IMG/VR virus record: IMGVR_UViG_2690316269_000012
Direction: 5' to 3' (one strand)
DNA length: 35,124 bases
Source of the DNA: a virus
Lineage: Duplodnaviria; Heunggongvirae; Uroviricota; Caudoviricetes
Shown here: positions 4,596 through 25,098 of the stretch, piece after piece
Layout of the letters: every line of letters begins with the position of its first letter
How positions within the stretch are numbered: the stretch's first letter is position 1
Program-made: the position numbers and the translations under genes
The notes under the pieces: generated by a model
The model's database searches: none
What the model saw: only the letters and a program-made list of their open reading frames with translations
What the model was told of the DNA's origin: nothing

Positions 4596-4985
4596 ATGAT
4601 TGACGCTCATGACTTCACAAGATGGGTGCGCACACAGGACACCCGTCTGGCTCCCGTTCTTCAGGGATTATTTGATCTCTACATCCGTGGTCGTGACAAC
4701 AGAGCACGCACCACAAAACCGGAGAATGCAGACACCCTTTATTTCACAGTAGACGACTGCTACCGCGTGGACTTCACACCACACGGGCTGGCGTTGCACT
4801 GCCTGACACCACACGGCGAATCACTGCTGGCGTATTACGACTCCCCGGCCTCCATATTTGCGGCAATGCTGGCGCATCGCACTGCTGGCGGGTGTGCCTC
4901 GCTGAGTGAATACTCCGCTGAATTTAACCGCCTTTCCGCCCTCTTCTCACAGGAGTGGCAGCGCGTGACGGGATACCAGCCATGA
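4596..4985 (+). CDS. hypothetical early protein (position of P2 B/orf8x genes)
   Basis: 129-aa ORF immediately upstream of and overlapping the gene A start. Confidence 0.5.
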   Translation: MIDAHDFTRWVRTQDTRLAPVLQGLFDLYIRGRDNRARTTKPENADTLYFTVDDCYRVDFTPHGLALHCLTPHGESLLAYYDSPASIFAAMLAHRTAGGCASLSEYSAEFNRLSALFSQEWQRVTGYQP

Positions 4986-7822
4986 GTGCGTTTGCATGGA
5001 GCTGGAATGAACCACGGCCAGCCATTGATCCGGCCAGATTTACGGAGCGCAGGCAGGAAACTGAAACCGACCTGCAACGCGCCATCCGTTACTACCTTGA
5101 GGCAAACAAAAGGGCACAGGAAGAACAGGAAGCGAAGGAAGAAGCCTTTTTCGCACAATCCACCGTGGGTAAAAAACTCATGGCATCCCTTGAGGAAGCC
5201 GGACAGCGTGAAAAGCTGGCACAAAGCATCATCAGCAAGCGTCAGGCAACAGAACAAGACCCGGTGGCCCGTGCTTTTGCCACACTGAAGGTGCTTCCCG
5301 TTTATCTGCGTGAACCTCTGAGCCGCCACCTCTCTTTTCTGCGCAAGAAGCAGGAAGCCGATCGTCAGAAAGGCAAAAAGAGCTGGCAGGCTGAACGCTA
5401 CGCGCGCGGAACCCTGCGCAAAATATTCGAACGTCTGGACCGCACCGACAGCCGCTGGCTGACACCGGGCTATCGCTCCCTTGCCGGACGCGAACGCCTG
5501 GACGATTTGCTTTACCTGCCGCAGCTCAACAAACACCAGATACAGACGCTGGCCACCATGACGGCGGCGATGTTCAGTGGCACTTTTGAAAAACTCTGCG
5601 ATGGCTTTGGCGCGACCGATGGCGAGCTGACCATGGATGTAACGCTGAAGGCGTATCAGATGCTGGCCCGCATGGCGTTACACCTGCACGCTATGCCTCC
5701 ACATTATGACGCTCTGACAACAGACAAAGACCGGAGGAATGAACCGGACACGGAGCTGCTGCCGGGCGCAATCCTTCGCCTGACCTGTGCGGAATGGTGG
5801 AAACGCAAACTGTGGCTGTTACGTTGCGAGTGGAGAGAAGAACAACTCCGCGCCGCCTGTCTGGTTTCCAGAAAAACATCACCCTATCTGAGCCAGGACG
5901 CGTTAAGCGAGTTTCGCGCACAGCGCGAGAAAACACGCGATTTCCTGAAAAGTTTCATGCTGGAAAACGAAGACGGGTTCACGATTGATCTCGAGACAGT
6001 GTATTACGCGGGAGTAAGTAACCCGATTCACCGTAAGGCAGAAATGATGGCCACCATGAAGGGGCTGGAACTTCTGGCCGAAGCCCGTGGCGACAGAGCG
6101 GTGTTTCTGACTGTCACCTGCCCGTCAAAATACCACGCCACAACAGAGAACGGTCATCCGAATCCCAAATGGAACGGGGCCACCATGCGCGACTCCAGCG
6201 ATTACCTGGTTAACACGTTTTTTGCGGCGGTCCGCAAGAAACTGAACCGCGACGGCCTGCGCTGGTATGGCATCCGCACGGTGGAGCCTCACCATGACGG
6301 CACCGTGCACTGGCATATGATGGTCTTTGCTCATCCGGAAGAAATCGACACCATTGTGTCCCACACCCGCGATATTGCCATTCAGGAAGACCGCCACGAG
6401 CTGGGCAATGATATTACTCCGCGCTTTAAGGTGGAGTATGTCGACGGCTCAAAAGGCACGCCAACCAGCTACATCGCCACCTACATCGGAAAGAACCTGG
6501 ACAGCCGCGCCGTGGATGGCATCGACCCGAAAACGGGCAAGCCACGCGTTGACCACGAAACCGGAAAATCAATGGCCGAGAGCGTGGAACGCGCCATCGG
6601 CTGGGCACGCCTTCACCGGGTCCGCCAGTTCCAGTTCTTTGGCATCCCCTCCCGTCAGGTATGGCGTGAACTCCGCCGCCTTGCCAGCCAGATGGCACGC
6701 AACCCGGAAGGCCCACAACGGCTGAAGGATGATGCAATGGATGCGGTACTCGCTGCCGCTGATGCCGGATGTTTTGCCACCTACATTGAAAAACAGGGTG
6801 GCGTACTTGTTCCGCGCAAGGACTACCTGATTCGCACAGCCTACGACCTCGCAGATGAGCTGAACGATTACGGCGAACAGAGTGTACAGATTTACGGGAT
6901 CTGGTCGCCATTCATCGGGGAATCCTCCCGTGTGTGCACGCATCCGGATAACTGGAAGCTGGTAAGACGTAAACCGGAAGCGGAAGACAGCGCCCGCGAA
7001 AATGGTTTTGACCTTCAGGGCGGCCCTGCCGCCCCTTGGACTCGTGGCAATAACTGTCCCCGTGTACAGGAAACAGGCAACAACGGGACAGAACAGCCGG
7101 AAGAACGGCCAGCACCGTGGCCGCAGCTTCCTGACGGCGTTGAAGTAAATGAATGGATGCGCTCACTGAAACGGCACGAACGCCGGGCGCTGATGCGTTC
7201 GCTTCGTGACAAACAGGCAAAAAACAGCAGCGATGAAATGCAGAACTGGACACAGAGCCGCAAACAGCAGCGGCCTTTGCCTGATAACCACGAGTTACTC
7301 GCTAAAGAATGGCGGGAGTCTGCTGAATCTCTCGGCCTGCATATCGGTGAACAACAGATGCAGCACCTGTTACGGGGCGGCAGTCTGTACGTTGACGGCA
7401 GCATCATTGCACCGCAGGGATTTGAAATTGTACGCAAACCGGATACCCGCCCGGACAGCCGAATCACGCAGCTCTGGCAGCGTCTGAGCCGTAATCATGG
7501 CGTAAGCAGCACGGAGATCCGCCATAACCCGGTCGCCAGCTATCTGGCACAGCTGGGGGCATCAGACCCTGAAGCCGCCGCACGCCTGGCATCCACACTT
7601 CAGCAGGACCAGAACACCATGAAAACACCCGTTACCGTGCTTTCTGACATGCTGCGCGCCATCCGCGACGCAGAGCACGCACAGAGAATCAGTGAAACCA
7701 CTGAACGCGCCAGCCGCAAAGCAGACCTGCTGCGGGGTGGCCTGACCAGTGGAAACAAAAAACAGACAGAAACGGGACTCACGAATCCCGTAAATGAGCA
7801 AAAAACGCGCAGCGATATATGA
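4982..7822 (+). CDS. A: rolling-circle replication initiator endonuclease (P2 gpA family)
   Basis: 946 aa from ATG at 4982; HUH-type motif (GTVHWHMMVF) and overall resemblance to P2 gene A product; longer than P2 A (about 761 aa) with a C-terminal extension. Confidence 0.88.
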   Translation: MSAFAWSWNEPRPAIDPARFTERRQETETDLQRAIRYYLEANKRAQEEQEAKEEAFFAQSTVGKKLMASLEEAGQREKLAQSIISKRQATEQDPVARAFATLKVLPVYLREPLSRHLSFLRKKQEADRQKGKKSWQAERYARGTLRKIFERLDRTDSRWLTPGYRSLAGRERLDDLLYLPQLNKHQIQTLATMTAAMFSGTFEKLCDGFGATDGELTMDVTLKAYQMLARMALHLHAMPPHYDALTTDKDRRNEPDTELLPGAILRLTCAEWWKRKLWLLRCEWREEQLRAACLVSRKTSPYLSQDALSEFRAQREKTRDFLKSFMLENEDGFTIDLETVYYAGVSNPIHRKAEMMATMKGLELLAEARGDRAVFLTVTCPSKYHATTENGHPNPKWNGATMRDSSDYLVNTFFAAVRKKLNRDGLRWYGIRTVEPHHDGTVHWHMMVFAHPEEIDTIVSHTRDIAIQEDRHELGNDITPRFKVEYVDGSKGTPTSYIATYIGKNLDSRAVDGIDPKTGKPRVDHETGKSMAESVERAIGWARLHRVRQFQFFGIPSRQVWRELRRLASQMARNPEGPQRLKDDAMDAVLAAADAGCFATYIEKQGGVLVPRKDYLIRTAYDLADELNDYGEQSVQIYGIWSPFIGESSRVCTHPDNWKLVRRKPEAEDSARENGFDLQGGPAAPWTRGNNCPRVQETGNNGTEQPEERPAPWPQLPDGVEVNEWMRSLKRHERRALMRSLRDKQAKNSSDEMQNWTQSRKQQRPLPDNHELLAKEWRESAESLGLHIGEQQMQHLLRGGSLYVDGSIIAPQGFEIVRKPDTRPDSRITQLWQRLSRNHGVSSTEIRHNPVASYLAQLGASDPEAAARLASTLQQDQNTMKTPVTVLSDMLRAIRDAEHAQRISETTERASRKADLLRGGLTSGNKKQTETGLTNPVNEQKTRSDI

Positions 7823-7898: not shown

Positions 7899-8858
7899 AT
7901 GAAAATTTACATCGACGACGGCTCCACCAACATCAAGCTGGCATGGACTGAGAACGGCGAACGCCGCAACGCCATCAGCCCGAACAGCTTCAAGTCGGAA
8001 TGGTCTGCGCCGTTCGGTGGCTCGCAGCCTGCTAACTACATGCTTGATGGCGTGCGCTATGGTTTTGATCCGGTCAGCGATCGCTTTGTCCAGACGACCG
8101 ACACGCAATACCAGTACAGCGATGTGAATGTCATTGCCATTCATCACGCGCTGGTCAAATCAGACATCACGCCACAGGAAGTGGATGTGGTTGTTACCCT
8201 GCCACTGAGCGAATATTTCGACACAAACGCACAGCCGGACATGGCCAACATCAACCGCAAAAAAGCGAACGTCATGCGCCCGGTGGAGTACCAGAACGGC
8301 GAAGCATTCACTATCCGTAACGTACGGGTTATGCCTGAATCCATTCCGGCTGGCTTTAAAGCACTGGCTGACATGAGTCCGTTTGAATCCCTGCTGATTG
8401 TGGATTTGGGCGGAACCACGCTGGATGTGGCAAAGGTTCAGGGGCAACTGGCAGGTATCAGCCAGGTGTTTTGCGATCCACACGTAGGCGTTTCTCTTAT
8501 GGCCGATGCCGTACTGTCGGTGATGGCCACTAACGGTATGCGCACCAGTCACCACATCGCCAATACCATTATCGAACATCGCCATAATGAAGCCTGGCTG
8601 CGCCAGCACATCCACAATGACGCGCATTACGCCAGCCTGATGGCGGTTATTCGTGAAAAGGAAGAAACACTGAAACAACGCGTGATCCGCGCGCTGGCGG
8701 TTTTTTCGGGTTACGGGCGGGTGATGGTTGTCGGTGGCGGGGCGGAGATTGTGGCACCCGCTATCCGCGAAGCCTGCGGAGTTAATGCGACTTTCATCGC
8801 GGACGGGGTGCCACAGTTTGCTCTGGTTAATGGGCTGTACGCAATGGACAAGGAGTAA
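7899..8858 (+). CDS. parM: actin-like segregation ATPase ParM/StbA
   Basis: 319 aa; N-terminus MKIYIDDGSTNIKLAW and later blocks (YSDVNVIAIHHAL, VMPESIPAG, LIVDLGGTTLD, VVGGGAEI) match plasmid R1 ParM closely from memory. Confidence 0.88.
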   Translation: MKIYIDDGSTNIKLAWTENGERRNAISPNSFKSEWSAPFGGSQPANYMLDGVRYGFDPVSDRFVQTTDTQYQYSDVNVIAIHHALVKSDITPQEVDVVVTLPLSEYFDTNAQPDMANINRKKANVMRPVEYQNGEAFTIRNVRVMPESIPAGFKALADMSPFESLLIVDLGGTTLDVAKVQGQLAGISQVFCDPHVGVSLMADAVLSVMATNGMRTSHHIANTIIEHRHNEAWLRQHIHNDAHYASLMAVIREKEETLKQRVIRALAVFSGYGRVMVVGGGAEIVAPAIREACGVNATFIADGVPQFALVNGLYAMDKE

Positions 8859-8862
8859 ACCA

Positions 8863-9174
8863 ATGACGACACCAACCAGACGGATAAGTTTCTATCTGAA
8901 GCCCGCCGCCGTCAAGAACGAAGGAGAAGCATGCGCCTGGCTGGACAGCCTTACACCAGAAGCCCGCAAAAGCGGCCAACGCGTGGCTTTTCTGGCCGGG
9001 CTGGCACTTCTGAAGACGAATCCGGCAGAGGCTTACCGACTGGCCGCATGGGCTGATGATGAGATGTTACCTGTGACACAAATCAGCTCAAAAAAGTTTG
9101 AAGCACAGTCTGCACCAGTGGCTAAGATAACCAGCCAGATGGCTGGGAATATCCGGGCGTTATTTCCTGAGTAA
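8863..9174 (+). CDS. parR: ParR-like centromere-binding adaptor
   Basis: 104 aa from ATG at 8863; ISFYLKP...LDSLTPEARKSGQRVAFLAGLAL and C-terminal IRALFPE resemble R1 ParR; directly follows parM. Confidence 0.8.
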   Translation: MTTPTRRISFYLKPAAVKNEGEACAWLDSLTPEARKSGQRVAFLAGLALLKTNPAEAYRLAAWADDEMLPVTQISSKKFEAQSAPVAKITSQMAGNIRALFPE

Positions 9175-9302
9175 AAGCATCTGCGCGAAAAATGCTCACG
9201 TTTATAGAGACAGTATCATTCCATTTGGCACACTTACTTCAATAATCGATCTGTTAAACAAATAGATTGTCTATTATCTATCGATTAAAACGATCAATTA
9301 TC

Positions 9303-9331
9303 TTGACAGTAATGTGCCTTTTTGTAAGATC
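9303..9331 (+). promoter_or_regulatory. candidate promoter (TTGACA, about 16-nt spacer, TAAGAT)
   Basis: Consensus -35 at 9303..9308 in the AT-rich gap after parR; would give a long leader for the 9539..9808 ORF. Confidence 0.3.
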
Positions 9332-9372
9332 GTTCGCATTGTGAGCGACAAGATAATTGCGCGGCATTGTCC

Positions 9373-9471
9373 ATGCAAAACGCCCCAATAGCAGCAACTA
9401 TTGGGGCGTAAAACTCGGTCGGACTCACTTAACCTGATATGCGTGCCTTCCGAAGTAAATCAAAATGTGCG
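9373..9471 (-). ncRNA. candidate small RNA of about 100 nt, antisense to the leader of the 9539..9808 ORF
   Basis: Minus-strand promoter TTTACA-N17-TAAAAT (complement of 9478..9506) and an intrinsic terminator on the minus strand (11-bp GC-rich stem 9381..9391/9398..9408 followed by UUUUG); no ORF in the interval. Confidence 0.3.
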
Positions 9472-9538
9472 TCGTATATTTTATTGCTTACACGCACCTC
9501 TGTAAAGGCACGCATATTTTTCCTATGAGGTAAATAAA

Positions 9539-9808
9539 GTGCGGGCTAAAACAGGTATTTGCAAGAACCCTCATCGTTATAATCCAACATTTCTGTCTCT
9601 CCCTGAATATCAAGGACAAGAAGGTCGGCACAAATGCGCTGCCTGTGCTTTTGAGCTAGGCATAAAAGATGCGCTTGAAGGACGCGCTATGGCTCAGAAT
9701 GATTTAGTTTTAGCTAACATTCCGTTTAGCCAGGCTGGAACTGTAAGGCACAGAGATGCCTATGAAGCATATGTTCGTGGTTGGCGATTAATAAACAGCA
9801 ACAATTGA
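9539..9808 (+). CDS. small Cys/His-rich protein of unknown function
   Basis: 89 aa, GTG start with GAGG RBS; C8-x3-H12 and H31-x-C33-x2-C36 spacing suggests a zinc knuckle; own terminator downstream. Confidence 0.5.
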   Translation: MRAKTGICKNPHRYNPTFLSLPEYQGQEGRHKCAACAFELGIKDALEGRAMAQNDLVLANIPFSQAGTVRHRDAYEAYVRGWRLINSNN

Positions 9809-9816
9809 TACTTTTG

Positions 9817-9843
9817 AAGCGCCGATAAGGCGCTTTTTTTGTT
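9817..9843 (+). terminator. rho-independent terminator
   Basis: 7-bp stem AAGCGCC/GGCGCTT with GATAA loop followed by a T-run of 7, nine nt after the ORF stop. Confidence 0.65.
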
Positions 9844-10293
9844 TGCACGATAGTGCACAAGTTTGCACAATTTTTTTGAACGACTTTTTGTACTTCCGGC
9901 CCGCGTGGTGGCTGGATCCGTCAAGGATCCGTACGTGCACAAAAAAACGCGTTTTTTCTGCGCGCAGGTGACGGGGGAACAGCCCGCGTTTCAGGGGGTA
10001 AATAGCATCCCCTGAACGATGTCGCAGCGACACAACAGAATGGCTGTATTTCTCACGCTGAGCGTGAAAAAGACGTGAGGGCTTTTGATTTGATGGGTGG
10101 CAGATAAGGCCGTCAAAATCGCACTGAGGCGGCGAGAACATGCAGTCAACGCGGTGGGATTGCGTAAGAGTCTGACCGCCGATGATGACAATAAGCAGAA
10201 AAGCGTCGTGAAATTATCTGATTGATACAGGAGCTGGAGAGTCGGGGCATAAATTTTTTATGCCCCGGCGAAGCAGCAGACAAGCGAAGCGCG

Positions 10294-24520: not shown

Positions 24521-25098
24521 TGACATTCAGAATGAGTGAACACTCACGGACCATAAAAATTTATAATCTACTGACCGGAACCAATGAGTTTATTGGTGAA
24601 GGTGATGCATACATTCCACCTCATACAGGTCTGCCTGCAAACAGTACCGATATTGCCCCGCCAGATATTCCGGCTGGCTTCGTGGCCGTTTTCAACAGTG
24701 ATGAGGCATCGTGGCATCTCGTTGAAGACCATCGGGGTAAAACGGTTTATGACGTGGCATCAGGGGACTCGTTATTTATTTCTGAACTCGGTCCATTACC
24801 GGAAAATGTTACCTGGTTGTCGCCGTATGGAGAGTATCAGAAGTGGAACGGCACATCCTGGGTGAAAGATGCAGAAGCAGAAAAACTGTTTCGGATAAGG
24901 GAGGCGGAAGAAACAAAAAACAGCCTGATGCAGGTAGCCAGCGAGCATATTGCGCCACTTCAGGATGCCGTAGATTTGGATATTGCAACGGAGGAAGAGG
25001 CATCGTTACTGGCTGCATGGAAGACATACCGGGTATTGTTGAATCGTGTTAATACAGCGGTAGCAGCGGATGTTGAGTGGCCAGTCGCCCCACAATAA
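24520..25098 (+). CDS. G: tail fibre assembly chaperone G
   Basis: 192 aa; ATGA overlap with H; position. Confidence 0.8.

What the first reader, a model, noticed from the sequence alone, without database searches (positions are those of the whole stretch)
9175..9850. Candidate cis-antisense small RNA opposite the leader of a Cys/His-rich 89-aa ORF
In the AT-rich gap after parR, the minus strand carries a near-consensus promoter (TTTACA-N17-TAAAAT, complement of 9478..9506) and, about 100 nt downstream, a strong intrinsic terminator (11-bp GC stem 9381..9408 then UUUUG). No ORF lies between them. The only good plus-strand promoter is far upstream (TTGACA at 9303), so the mRNA for the 9539..9808 ORF would have a long leader fully complementary to this RNA. 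The region also holds an 11-bp inverted repeat (ATATGCGTGCC at 9437..9447 and GGCACGCATAT at 9507..9517). This resembles a type I toxin-antitoxin or antisense-controlled moron, but the ORF product is not a typical hydrophobic toxin.
Basis: inference. Interest (0 to 1): 0.55.

Follow-up and report, generated by a model that had tools for sequence, protein, structure and literature searches.

The report
Conserved antisense RNA gating a prophage gene
Upstream of a small prophage gene of unknown function lies a conserved regulatory cassette with two facing promoters, one of which probably makes a roughly 100-base antisense RNA that holds the gene in check; this is a new RNA family of a familiar type, not a toxin-antitoxin pair.

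Summary
In this sequence alone they are no more than chance would give: 2 promoter-like sites were found against 1.9 expected.

Comparison with relatives shows they are real. The window is a P2-like E. coli prophage. Region 9229-9845 is a self-contained accessory-gene ("moron") cassette between parR and cos.

In 23 diverged relatives (protein identity 49-63%), only 17 of 238 upstream columns are invariant. Thirteen of them fall in the four hexamers of two facing promoters, with T-12, A-11 and T-7 invariant in both -10 elements. The minus-strand spacer is 17 bp in 26 of 27 cassettes.

The minus-strand RNA structure covaries: 12 of 15 pairs show compensatory changes, and there are 39 G.U pairs against 6 A.C. 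Its hairpin carries a U/pyrimidine tail only on the minus strand. The plus-strand leader has its own covarying hairpin that sequesters the ribosome-binding site (RBS).

The same cassette precedes an unrelated Bro-N antirepressor-like gene in other prophages. Homologues of the ORF occur without it inside Dam-like methylase / DpnII-like endonuclease operons.

Best reading: a portable cis-antisense control cassette, possibly Dam-sensitive. It is absent from Rfam. No transcript has been observed.

The parts
9242..9301 (.). Imperfect 26-nt palindrome just upstream of P(+). It carries GATC at 9247-9250 and 9292-9295. Either an operator-like site or a parC-like site; its role is unknown.
   Evidence: repeat I1, 73% complementary. 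Conserved in L153 and L157, and in weaker E. coli matches covering 9229-9408.
9303..9330 (+). P(+), the promoter of the ORF mRNA: TTGACA (9303-9308), N16, TAAGAT (9325-9330). GATC at 9328-9331 overlaps the -10 element. A second GATC at 9292-9295 lies 7 nt upstream of the -35.
   Evidence: 10/12. G9305, A9306, T9325, A9326 and T9330 are invariant in 23 relatives. GATC positions are recurrent across cassettes.
9337..9538 (+). Inferred 5' leader of the ORF mRNA, about 200 nt, starting near 9337.
   Evidence: Inferred from P(+). No plus-strand terminator lies in between. Leader length is conserved at 166-188 nt in relatives.
9373..9471 (-). Inferred cis-antisense RNA of about 99 nt: 5' tail, stem-loop 1, U-rich linker, terminator stem-loop, UUUU tail. 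It is fully complementary to the middle of the leader.
   Evidence: Fold z = -4.2. The same layout is seen in 27 cassettes. Covariation and a G.U bias favour the minus strand. Covariance model (CM) R1 matches L157 and L153 at full length, but in the window only the terminator.
9380..9409 (-). Terminator hairpin of the antisense RNA: 12-bp stem, loop UUGCUG, followed by UUUUG (complement of 9379-9375).
   Evidence: In relatives the tail is U- or pyrimidine-rich only on the minus strand. It is a canonical U7 in the Citrobacter/Klebsiella group.
9478..9506 (-). P(-), the promoter of the antisense RNA: TTTACA (complement of 9506-9501), N17, TAAAAT (complement of 9483-9478). Transcription start is near 9471-9472.
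   Evidence: 10/12. Columns 9478, 9482, 9483 and 9502-9507 are invariant in 23 relatives. The spacer is 17 in 26 of 27 cassettes and 18 in one, with unrelated spacer sequences.
9437..9517 (+). 13-nt perfect inverted repeat (9437-9449 / 9505-9517) bracketing P(-). In the plus-strand mRNA it forms a long-range stem whose 5' arm lies inside the antisense target.
   Evidence: repeat I2. It is part of the leader minimum-free-energy (MFE) fold. Analogous stems bracket P(-) in relatives, for example GAGATCTC pairs and TGATCACC/GGTGATC.
9518..9534 (+). RBS-sequestering hairpin: UUUUCCU-AUG-AGGUAAA. The Shine-Dalgarno (SD) sequence GAGG lies at 9527-9530.
   Evidence: Read from the sequence. An equivalent anti-SD/SD hairpin covaries in relatives: CCUCA/UGAGG, CCUGU/ACAGG, CCUAU/AUAGG, GCACCUU/AAGGUGC, CCUUA/UAAGG, with G.U pairs on the plus strand.
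9539..9808 (+). 89-aa cargo gene (phrog_3941, function unknown). It is an internal duplication with two RHK motifs and conserved C8, H12, C33, C36.
   Evidence: No match in Pfam, NCBIfam, PADLOC, or the solved-structure and viral-structure libraries.
9816..9843 (+). Intrinsic terminator of the ORF mRNA: 8-bp stem plus a T7 run.

Best explanation
Region 9229-9845 is an autonomous accessory-gene cassette in a P2-like prophage.

**Proposed mechanism**
- P(+) at 9303-9330 transcribes the 89-aa gene through a structured leader of about 200 nt.
- P(-), a convergent promoter inside that leader (complement of 9506-9478), makes a two-hairpin RNA of about 99 nt (9471->9373).
- That RNA is perfectly complementary to the middle of the leader. 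It stops about 55 nt short of the ribosome-binding site.
- The RNA represses the gene in cis, by duplex formation with the leader. The duplex would lead to RNase III cleavage and/or a refolding that favours the local anti-SD hairpin at 9518-9534.
- Head-on transcriptional interference between the two promoters would act as well.
- GATC sites placed in or next to the promoters suggest that Dam methylation state tunes the balance, as in IS10 pIN/pOUT.

**Status of each step**
- Shown by comparative analysis: both promoters, the minus-strand RNA structure and the RBS hairpin are under selection.
- Inferred: that the RNAs are made, that pairing represses the gene, and that Dam matters.
For: **Context.** The window is a Xuanwuvirus-like P2 prophage. 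Replication gene A, ParM and ParR lie upstream; cos, portal and terminase lie downstream. The region is at least 95% identical in 166 of 5426 E. coli genomes.

**Promoters.**
- In alignment A6 (window plus 22 non-redundant relatives), 13 of 17 invariant columns lie in the four promoter hexamers. These make up 23 of 238 columns. Hypergeometric P = 2.5e-12.
- In both -10 hexamers the invariant bases are exactly T-12, A-11 and T-7.
- P(-) has -35 TTTAC(A/T) 21-41 nt from the start codon (28-38 nt in 25 of 27). Its spacer is 17 bp in 26 of 27 cassettes, although the spacer sequences are unrelated.

**RNA structure and strand.**
- A covariance model built from P22-like cassettes finds full-length minus-strand matches in the Providencia, Gilliamella and P2-like (L157, L153) groups.
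- On the resulting alignment, 91% of cells pair against 75% in shuffles. Twelve of 15 pairs carry double changes. No shuffle out of 500 reaches this, and slid registers collapse.
- There are 39 G.U pairs against 6 A.C. Nineteen sequences fit the minus strand better and one fits the plus strand better.
- The hairpin tail is U- or pyrimidine-rich only on the minus strand. It is U7 in the Citrobacter/Klebsiella group.

**Plus-strand leader.**
- The 5' hairpin and the anti-SD hairpin covary, and their G.U pairs lie on the plus strand.
- Blocking the antisense-covered stretch lowers the predicted SD accessibility in 15 of 18 leaders. This is weak support.

**Portability.** The identical cassette drives a Bro-N gene in at least 10 viral contigs.

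**GATC.** It is the most over-represented 4-mer palindrome upstream: 90 in 28 x 260 nt, against 13 in the next 260 nt. It sits at fixed positions.
Against: - No transcript data of any kind were available.
- The window's own RNA is a divergent member. Model R1 matches only its terminator hairpin (12 bits, E 0.6). Its stems are perfect, so they carry no strand information. The inference for the window therefore rests on shared architecture and on the bridge through L157 and L153.
- The window's terminator tail has only four U.
- Alignment A8 was fitted to a minus-strand model. That inflates the pairing counts and the G.U bias, and the sequences are related, so the P values are not independent-sample probabilities.
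- The RNA does not cover the RBS, so the repression mechanism is indirect and unproven.
- In the window, predicted SD accessibility changes little (0.55 to 0.47).
- The window's P(-) has no GATC.
Confidence: 0.65

Rival explanations
1. Type I toxin-antitoxin or abortive-infection module. The 89-aa protein is a toxin whose translation is held off by a labile antisense RNA antitoxin. Shut-off of host transcription, for example by phage attack, would release it.
For: - The architecture resembles type I systems: an antisense RNA in the 5' leader, an RBS-sequestering hairpin, and a long structured leader.
- The location is a P2 accessory-gene hotspot and the rex/bstA position of lambdoid prophages (PMC7067206).
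- Non-membrane type I toxins exist (SymE, RalR). This is from my own knowledge.
Against: - The protein is hydrophilic and well folded, with conserved Zn-like and basic motifs.
- There is no PADLOC hit.
- Homologues occur without any antisense cassette in many phyla. They are often co-operonic with Dam-like methylases and DpnII-like endonucleases.
- The cassette also drives a Bro-N antirepressor-like gene. RNA and ORF are therefore separable.
Confidence: 0.12
2. P(-) works mainly as a DNA-level switch. Convergent transcription from P(-) and P(+), set by Dam or SeqA at the GATC sites, gives transcriptional interference. The short RNA is a by-product with no pairing role.
For: - The two promoters face each other about 170 bp apart in every cassette.
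- GATC sits at fixed positions in both promoters.
- The RNA does not reach the RBS.
- Convergent-promoter switches are typical of P2 and 186 phages. This is from my own knowledge; see also PMC5001618.
Against: - The RNA's two stem-loops covary and show a strand-specific G.U bias. That indicates selection on the RNA itself.
- The first 19 nt of the RNA are nearly invariant in the P22-like and Bro-N cassettes.
- A terminator limits the transcript before it reaches P(+). That weakens collision-type interference with P(+).
Confidence: 0.13
3. There is no functional RNA. The promoter-like hexamers and the hairpin are chance matches or protein-binding sites, such as operators or a parC-like centromere after parR.
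For: - In the single window the number of promoter-like sites equals the shuffle expectation.
- The region is AT-rich and full of inverted repeats that bracket both promoters.
- No Rfam family matches.
Against: - The conservation pattern is that of sigma-70 promoters (TTGA.. / TA...T) at a fixed 17-bp spacing in otherwise diverged DNA.
- The structure covaries.
- The cassette occurs in lambdoid prophages and in Gilliamella, where no ParMR gene was noted next to it. Neighbouring genes in Gilliamella were not annotated.
Confidence: 0.07

Closest known systems
IS10/Tn10 pIN-pOUT with RNA-OUT antisense control and Dam-sensitive pIN
   Same: - Two facing promoters.
- A short, stable stem-loop antisense RNA against the 5' part of the mRNA.
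- A GATC inside the -10 of the sense promoter (window TAAGATC, 9325-9331).
- The expected logic that expression is limited to hemi- or unmethylated DNA.
   Different: - RNA-OUT overlaps the RBS and start codon and shares only about 36 nt with RNA-IN. Here the overlap is about 100 nt and stops about 55 nt upstream of the SD.
- The cargo here is a prophage accessory gene, not a transposase.
- The Dam effect is untested.
P22 sar RNA / ant (Rfam RF00262)
   Same: - A temperate-phage cis-antisense RNA of about 70-100 nt with a GC-rich terminator hairpin.
- It controls an accessory or antirepressor gene. The sister cassettes here drive a Bro-N "antirepressor" gene.
- The window's terminator hairpin aligns to the sar hairpin.
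   Different: - The match scores only 22 bits against a gathering threshold of 43. It is restricted to the hairpin and disappears in larger searches.
- sar covers the ant RBS, and its locus (immI) and gene order are different.
- The window RNA is not a member of this family.
R1 CopA/CopT and F-like FinP/traJ leader-directed antisense RNAs
   Same: - The antisense RNA is transcribed from inside a long leader.
- Two stem-loops.
- The CopA target lies well upstream of the regulated start codon.
- finP/traJ expression is Dam-influenced in pSLT. This is from my own knowledge.
   Different: - No leader peptide or coupled translation is evident here.
- There is no sequence or Rfam relationship (the ctRNA_pGA1 hit covers the hairpin only, 22 bits).
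- The cargo is unrelated.
Type I toxin-antitoxin systems with 5'-UTR antisense RNAs (ldr/rdl, symE/symR)
   Same: An antisense RNA opposite the 5' UTR, plus an RBS-occluding mRNA structure.
   Different: - The product is not a small hydrophobic peptide.
- Gene and RNA are separable in evolution.
- Toxicity is unknown.

Membership tests
Type I toxin-antitoxin system | The toxin is a small, usually hydrophobic peptide, or a protein shown to be toxic. | tested here: not met
   The product is 89 aa and hydrophilic. Its AF2 model has pLDDT 92 and is all soluble helices. It carries conserved C8/H12/C33/C36 and two RHK motifs. Toxicity itself cannot be tested with these tools.
Type I toxin-antitoxin system | An antisense RNA is encoded against the toxin mRNA. 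| tested here: met
   A conserved minus-strand promoter, a covarying two-hairpin RNA and a terminator lie inside the leader. No transcript has been observed.
Type I toxin-antitoxin system | Toxin gene and RNA antitoxin form an obligate, co-inherited pair. | tested here: not met
   Homologues of the ORF lack the cassette in M-X-R operons and in other phyla. The cassette also occurs with a Bro-N cargo.
Type I toxin-antitoxin system | A stable toxin mRNA against a labile antitoxin RNA. | not testable with these tools
   This needs RNA half-life measurements.
cis-encoded antisense RNA regulators of mobile-element genes (generic kind) | A promoter on the opposite strand inside the target transcript, giving perfect complementarity. 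| tested here: met
   P(-) lies at the complement of 9506-9478, within the P(+) transcript. Both promoters are conserved at their diagnostic positions.
cis-encoded antisense RNA regulators of mobile-element genes (generic kind) | A short structured RNA ending at an intrinsic terminator. | tested here: met
   Fold z = -4.2. Stem-loop 1 and the terminator are conserved with compensatory changes. The U or pyrimidine tail is present only on the minus strand. The window tail has only 4 U.
cis-encoded antisense RNA regulators of mobile-element genes (generic kind) | A regulatory effect on the target gene. | not testable with these tools
   There is only a thermodynamic hint: SD accessibility falls in 15 of 18 modelled leaders.
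Rfam sar RNA (RF00262) / ctRNA_pGA1 (RF00236) / any Rfam family | A score at or above the family's gathering threshold. | tested here: not met
   22.0 bits (threshold 43) and 22.1 bits (threshold 45), covering the hairpin only. Nothing reaches a gathering threshold in the window or in 12 related loci. A permissive scan (E up to 5) of 10 more loci found no match in the cassette.
Dam-regulated promoter of the IS10 pIN type | A GATC within the -10 or -35 hexamer. | tested here: met
   GATC at 9328-9331 overlaps the -10 TAAGAT. TAnGATC recurs in L153, L157, L004, L175 and L183. GATC positions are fixed across cassettes.
Dam-regulated promoter of the IS10 pIN type | Promoter activity depends on methylation state. 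| not testable with these tools
   This needs reporter assays in dam+ and dam- hosts.

The most novel reading that the evidence does not exclude
The cassette is a methylation-and-antisense gated switch. It allows its cargo to be expressed only when the prophage's own GATC sites are hemi- or unmethylated, that is after induction, during rapid replication, or on fresh infection.

The 89-aa cargo is a previously unrecognised DNA-binding module tied to GATC. It has a pseudo-dimeric duplication with two RHK motifs. It is encoded between Dam-like and DpnII-like genes in other phyla, and it is fused to HNH, NOV_C and DndB domains. Phages would have borrowed it from DpnII-type restriction-modification systems, for example to shield unmethylated GATC from restriction or to control a restriction enzyme.
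Probability: 0.15. Interest if true: 0.8.

Novelty: new member of a known kind. Interest (0 to 1): 0.5.

Why it matters
- **A new RNA family.** It would add a conserved, covariation-supported cis-antisense RNA, absent from Rfam, to the regulators of prophage accessory genes. The same promoter/leader/antisense cassette is reused for unrelated cargos, so it behaves as a regulatory part that moves between genes.
- **An untouched protein family.** The ORF belongs to a widespread, well-folding family (phrog_3941) with no known fold relative. It is genetically linked to GATC-specific restriction-modification systems.
- **A tractable test system.** Strains carrying an identical copy are sequenced, so the cassette offers an E. 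coli handle for testing both the RNA control and the protein's function.

Tried and rejected
**Searches that found nothing**
- Rfam at gathering and permissive thresholds, on the window and 22 related loci. The cassette gave only hairpin-level hits to sar, ctRNA_pGA1 and Spot42. I rejected these as family membership.
- Pfam, NCBIfam and PADLOC for the ORF: nothing. PHROGs returned only an "unknown function" family.
- Two literature searches found no description of the RNA or the protein. PMC7067206 only supplied context on the cI-N moron site.
- blastn of the P22-like cassette against 50,697 phage genomes found only its own source phage.

**Analyses that were uninformative**
- The word-indexed protein search found only near-identical copies.
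- RNAalifold on the raw MAFFT alignment of whole leaders gave no structure, because the hairpins were misaligned. I replaced it with a covariance-model-guided alignment.
- Variation among E. coli copies is too small to be informative: 23 variable sites, none diagnostic.

**Ideas considered and set aside**
- The protein autoregulates through the GATC sites. This was weakened because cassettes with the Bro-N cargo keep the same GATCs, and because promoters of the M-X-R operons have no GATC.
- The hairpin terminates parMR. Rejected: it has no U tail on the plus strand, and the same hairpin occurs in cassettes with no par genes noted nearby.
- The 44-aa minus-strand frame from 9428 is a gene. Rejected: it runs through the terminator and is not conserved.
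Full report
**1. Observation**

- The promoter scan lists exactly two sigma-70-like sites in 8800-10200. One is TTGACA-N16-TAAGAT on the plus strand (9303-9330). The other is TTTACA-N17-TAAAAT on the minus strand (9506-9478). Both score 10/12.
- Two sites is what shuffles give (1.9 +/- 1.4). The single sequence therefore proves nothing.
- The hairpin at 9380-9391 / 9398-9409 is a perfect 12-bp stem. On the minus strand it is followed by UUUUGCAU.
- The 99-nt minus-strand RNA 9471->9373 folds to -35.6 kcal/mol, z = -4.2.
- The terminator scan missed it because the tail has four U rather than five.
- The inverted repeat is 13 nt (9437-9449 / 9505-9517).
- The ORF 9539-9808 (GTG start, SD GAGG at 9527-9530) is followed by a good plus-strand terminator at 9816-9836.

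**2. Context**

The window is a P2-like (Xuanwuvirus/P88-like) prophage.
- Upstream lie the replication protein GPA (4955-7822), ParM (7899-8858) and ParR (8863-9174).
- Then come the finding, a stretch (about 9844-9900) conserved among P2-like phages that I take to be cos-proximal (cos itself was not mapped), and the portal and terminase genes on the minus strand.
- Region 9175-9850 occurs at 95% identity or more in 166 of 5426 complete E. coli genomes. It is always chromosomal.
- From my own knowledge, this site corresponds to the old/tin accessory-gene hotspot of P2.

**3. The ORF is a real gene of an uncharacterised family**

*Database and structure searches*
- It matches phrog_3941, function unknown (E 9e-49), and nothing in Pfam, NCBIfam or PADLOC.
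- An exhaustive HMMER scan finds 173 representative relatives.
- The alignment shows C8, H12, R30, Q65, R70 and H71 invariant, and C33 and C36 nearly so. It also shows an internal duplication: LPxxQGxxGRHKCxxCAYExG followed by LPxSQAGxVRHKxxxxAYxxGY.
- AlphaFold2 gives pLDDT 92.

*Fusions and gene neighbourhoods*
- The domain is fused to HNH_2, NOV_C, DndB or WYL domains in larger proteins.
- Outside the Enterobacterales the small gene typically sits in a tight operon. In each case 38 neighbouring ORFs on that side were scanned.
  - Upstream, 15 of 38 are D12-class (Dam-like) N6-adenine methyltransferases, at gaps of 9-24 nt.
  - Downstream, 16 of 38 are DpnII-family endonucleases, at gaps of 19-48 nt.

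**4. A conserved cassette upstream of the gene**

The gene carries the same upstream architecture as the window in four other groups of hosts:
- Providencia and Proteus
- P22-like prophages of Salmonella, Enterobacter, Pantoea, Yersinia and Rahnella
- Gilliamella
- Citrobacter, Klebsiella, Buttiauxella and Serratia

Two P2-like phages that also carry ParMR (L153, L157) have the same architecture.

*Promoters*
- I aligned the 238 nt upstream of the start codon for the window and 22 non-redundant relatives (protein identity 49-63%). Only 17 columns are invariant.
- Thirteen of those lie in the four promoter hexamers, which make up 23 of the 238 columns. Hypergeometric P = 2.5e-12.
- The invariant promoter positions are:

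| Element | Window positions |
|---|---|
| P(+) -35 | G9305, A9306 |
| P(+) -10 | T9325, A9326, T9330 |
| P(-) -10 | complements of A9478, T9482, A9483 (T-7, A-11, T-12) |
| P(-) -35 | complement of 9502-9506, plus G9507 |

- The P(-) spacer is 17 bp in 26 of 27 cassettes and 18 bp in one, although the spacer sequences are unrelated. The -35 lies 21-41 nt from the start codon (28-38 nt in 25 of 27).
- This is the signature of two functional promoters facing each other.
- Homologues in the methylase / small-protein / endonuclease (M-X-R) operons show no TGTAAAG motif.

**5. The minus-strand RNA**

- Across 27 cassettes, the transcript predicted from P(-) has the same layout: a short 5' tail, an A/U-rich stem-loop, a U-rich linker, a GC-rich hairpin, then a U- or pyrimidine-rich tail. 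The tail is a canonical U7 in the Citrobacter/Klebsiella group.
- On the plus strand the hairpin is flanked only by A-runs. It can therefore terminate only minus-strand transcription.
- I built a covariance model from 16 P22-like cassettes. It finds full-length matches, on the minus strand and at the predicted place, in:
  - the Providencia group
  - the Gilliamella group
  - L157 (E 4e-5) and L153 (E 3e-4)
- In the window itself it finds only the terminator hairpin (12 bits). The window is a divergent member. It is linked through L157, which has the same hairpin sequence, the same P(+) and the same upstream palindrome.

*Covariation on the model-guided alignment of 24 sequences*
- 91% of cells pair, against 75% in shuffles.
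- Twelve of 15 pairs show changes on both sides.
- No shuffle out of 500 reaches the observed values, and slid registers drop to 47-66% paired.
- Read on the minus strand, 319 of 350 cells pair. Read on the plus strand, 286 do.
- There are 39 G.U pairs against 6 A.C. Nineteen sequences favour the minus strand and one favours the plus strand.

*Caveats.* The alignment was fitted to a minus-strand model, and the sequences are related.

**6. The plus-strand leader**

- P(+) lies about 170-200 nt upstream of the start codon. No plus-strand terminator intervenes.
- In most relatives the leader starts with a hairpin whose non-Watson-Crick pairs are G.U on the plus strand.
- Immediately after the TGTAAAG motif, an anti-SD/SD hairpin covaries: CCUCA/UGAGG, CCUGU/ACAGG, CCUAU/AUAGG, GCACCUU/AAGGUGC (with G.U variants) and CCUUA/UAAGG. 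The window version is UUUUCCU-AUG-AGGUAAA at 9518-9534.
- Both strands therefore carry strand-specific RNA signals. That is what overlapping sense and antisense transcripts would produce.
- Forcing the antisense-covered stretch to be unpaired lowers the predicted SD-AUG accessibility in 15 of 18 leaders. For the window it goes from 0.55 to 0.47. This is only a weak hint about mechanism.

**7. Portability**

- An exact-motif scan of viral contigs recovered the same cassette in front of a different gene. All elements are present: P(+), the 5' hairpin, the terminator hairpin, GAGATCTC, TGTAAAG and the RBS hairpin.
- That gene encodes a 234-aa Bro-N protein lying downstream of a cI-type repressor, in at least 10 contigs. 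Relatives of it are annotated as BRO-family antirepressors.
- The site between cI and N is a known accessory-gene site, holding rexAB and bstA (PMC7067206).
- The cassette is therefore a regulatory module that can be separated from the 89-aa gene.
- Together with section 3, this argues against an obligate toxin-antitoxin pair.

**8. GATC**

- In the 260 nt upstream of the start codon, GATC is the most frequent 4-mer palindrome. There are 90 copies in 28 cassettes, against 13 in the following 260 nt.
- It sits at fixed places:
  - about 7 nt upstream of the P(+) -35
  - inside the P(+) -10 (TAnGATC)
  - at the P(-) transcription start
  - next to the P(-) -35
- The window has the two P(+) sites (9292-9295 and 9328-9331) and none at P(-).
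- This suggests Dam control of the IS10 pIN type. That link is an inference from my own knowledge.
- Cassettes with the Bro-N cargo keep these sites, and promoters of the M-X-R operons lack GATC. Binding by the 89-aa protein itself is therefore an unlikely explanation.

**9. Verdict**

A cis-antisense RNA opposite the leader is well supported by comparative evidence. No transcript has been observed.
- The type I toxin-antitoxin reading fails two of its defining tests.
- The closest analogues in logic are IS10 RNA-OUT/pIN, P22 sar/ant and CopA/FinP. The RNA belongs to none of those families, and no Rfam family matches.
- I rate it a new member of a known kind, of moderate interest.
- The more novel possibility concerns the cargo protein's link to GATC restriction-modification systems.

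Noticed in passing
L064, L066, L073, L088, L091, L100, L103, L104, L112, L116, L117 (match at about 2501-2740 in each): Homologues of the 89-aa protein are encoded between a D12-class (Dam-like) adenine methyltransferase and a DpnII-family endonuclease, on the same strand with gaps of 9-48 nt. GATC is depleted in these loci. A small third component of GATC restriction-modification systems appears not to have been described.
   Followed up: partly
P0067, P0075, P0076, P0021, P0047, P0099, P0107: The same domain, sometimes in tandem, is fused to NOV_C, HNH_2, WYL or DndB domains. This suggests a nucleic-acid-recognition module used by nucleases and defence proteins.
   Followed up: partly
L203:2436-3285; also L226, L228, L229, L231, L235, L238, L239, L240, L242: The complete promoter / leader / antisense cassette precedes an unrelated 234-aa Bro-N (antirepressor-like) gene downstream of a cI-type repressor.
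   Followed up: yes
window 9292-9295 and 9328-9331; equivalent positions in 24 of the 28 cassettes examined: GATC is the most enriched 4-mer palindrome in the cassette. It occupies fixed positions at both promoters. In the window it overlaps the -10 of P(+).
   Followed up: partly
window 9295-9305 / 9349-9359 and 9437-9449 / 9505-9517: Each of the two promoters is bracketed by a perfect inverted repeat of 11-13 nt. One arm overlaps the -35 and the other lies 12-34 nt into the transcript. These could be RNA stems in the opposite transcript or protein-binding sites.
   Followed up: partly
window 9242-9301: An imperfect 26-nt palindrome rich in ATCGAT/GATC lies just upstream of P(+). It is shared with L153 and L157, which also carry ParMR. 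It could be a parC-like centromere or a cassette operator.
   Followed up: no
window 7899-9174: A complete ParM/ParR plasmid-partition pair sits in a P2-like prophage. In E. coli genomes this prophage is found only on chromosomes (179 places, none on plasmids). This hints at a plasmid-like stage or a former phage-plasmid.
   Followed up: no
window 24863-25061 (+): Rfam IS009 (RF02111) matches over its full length at 192 bits. It is the only Rfam family above threshold in the window.
   Followed up: no
L183:266-464 (+): isrK, c4-a1b1 and C4 antisense RNA families (a P1/P7-type immunity RNA set) lie about 900-1,100 nt upstream of the cassette (which starts near 1340) on the same viral contig.
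   Followed up: no
L184:2804-2893 (-): An sRNA-Xcc1 (RF02221) match at 59.9 bits lies in a Providencia-type contig that carries the cassette.
   Followed up: no
E. coli CH4793, NZ_CM166350.1:1996361-1997813 (hit H28): In one genome, the copy of region 9175-9850 is split by an IS1X4 insertion.
   Followed up: no
L157:1495-2548: A sister P2-like phage has near-identical ParM. At the same spot it carries a 56%-identical allele of the small gene, an extra 105-aa ORF and an Ogr-like zinc-finger gene. The site is therefore a variable cargo slot.
   Followed up: partly
L062:2808-3803: In the Citrobacter-type locus, the gene downstream of the cassette cargo encodes a DUF4062 protein.
   Followed up: no
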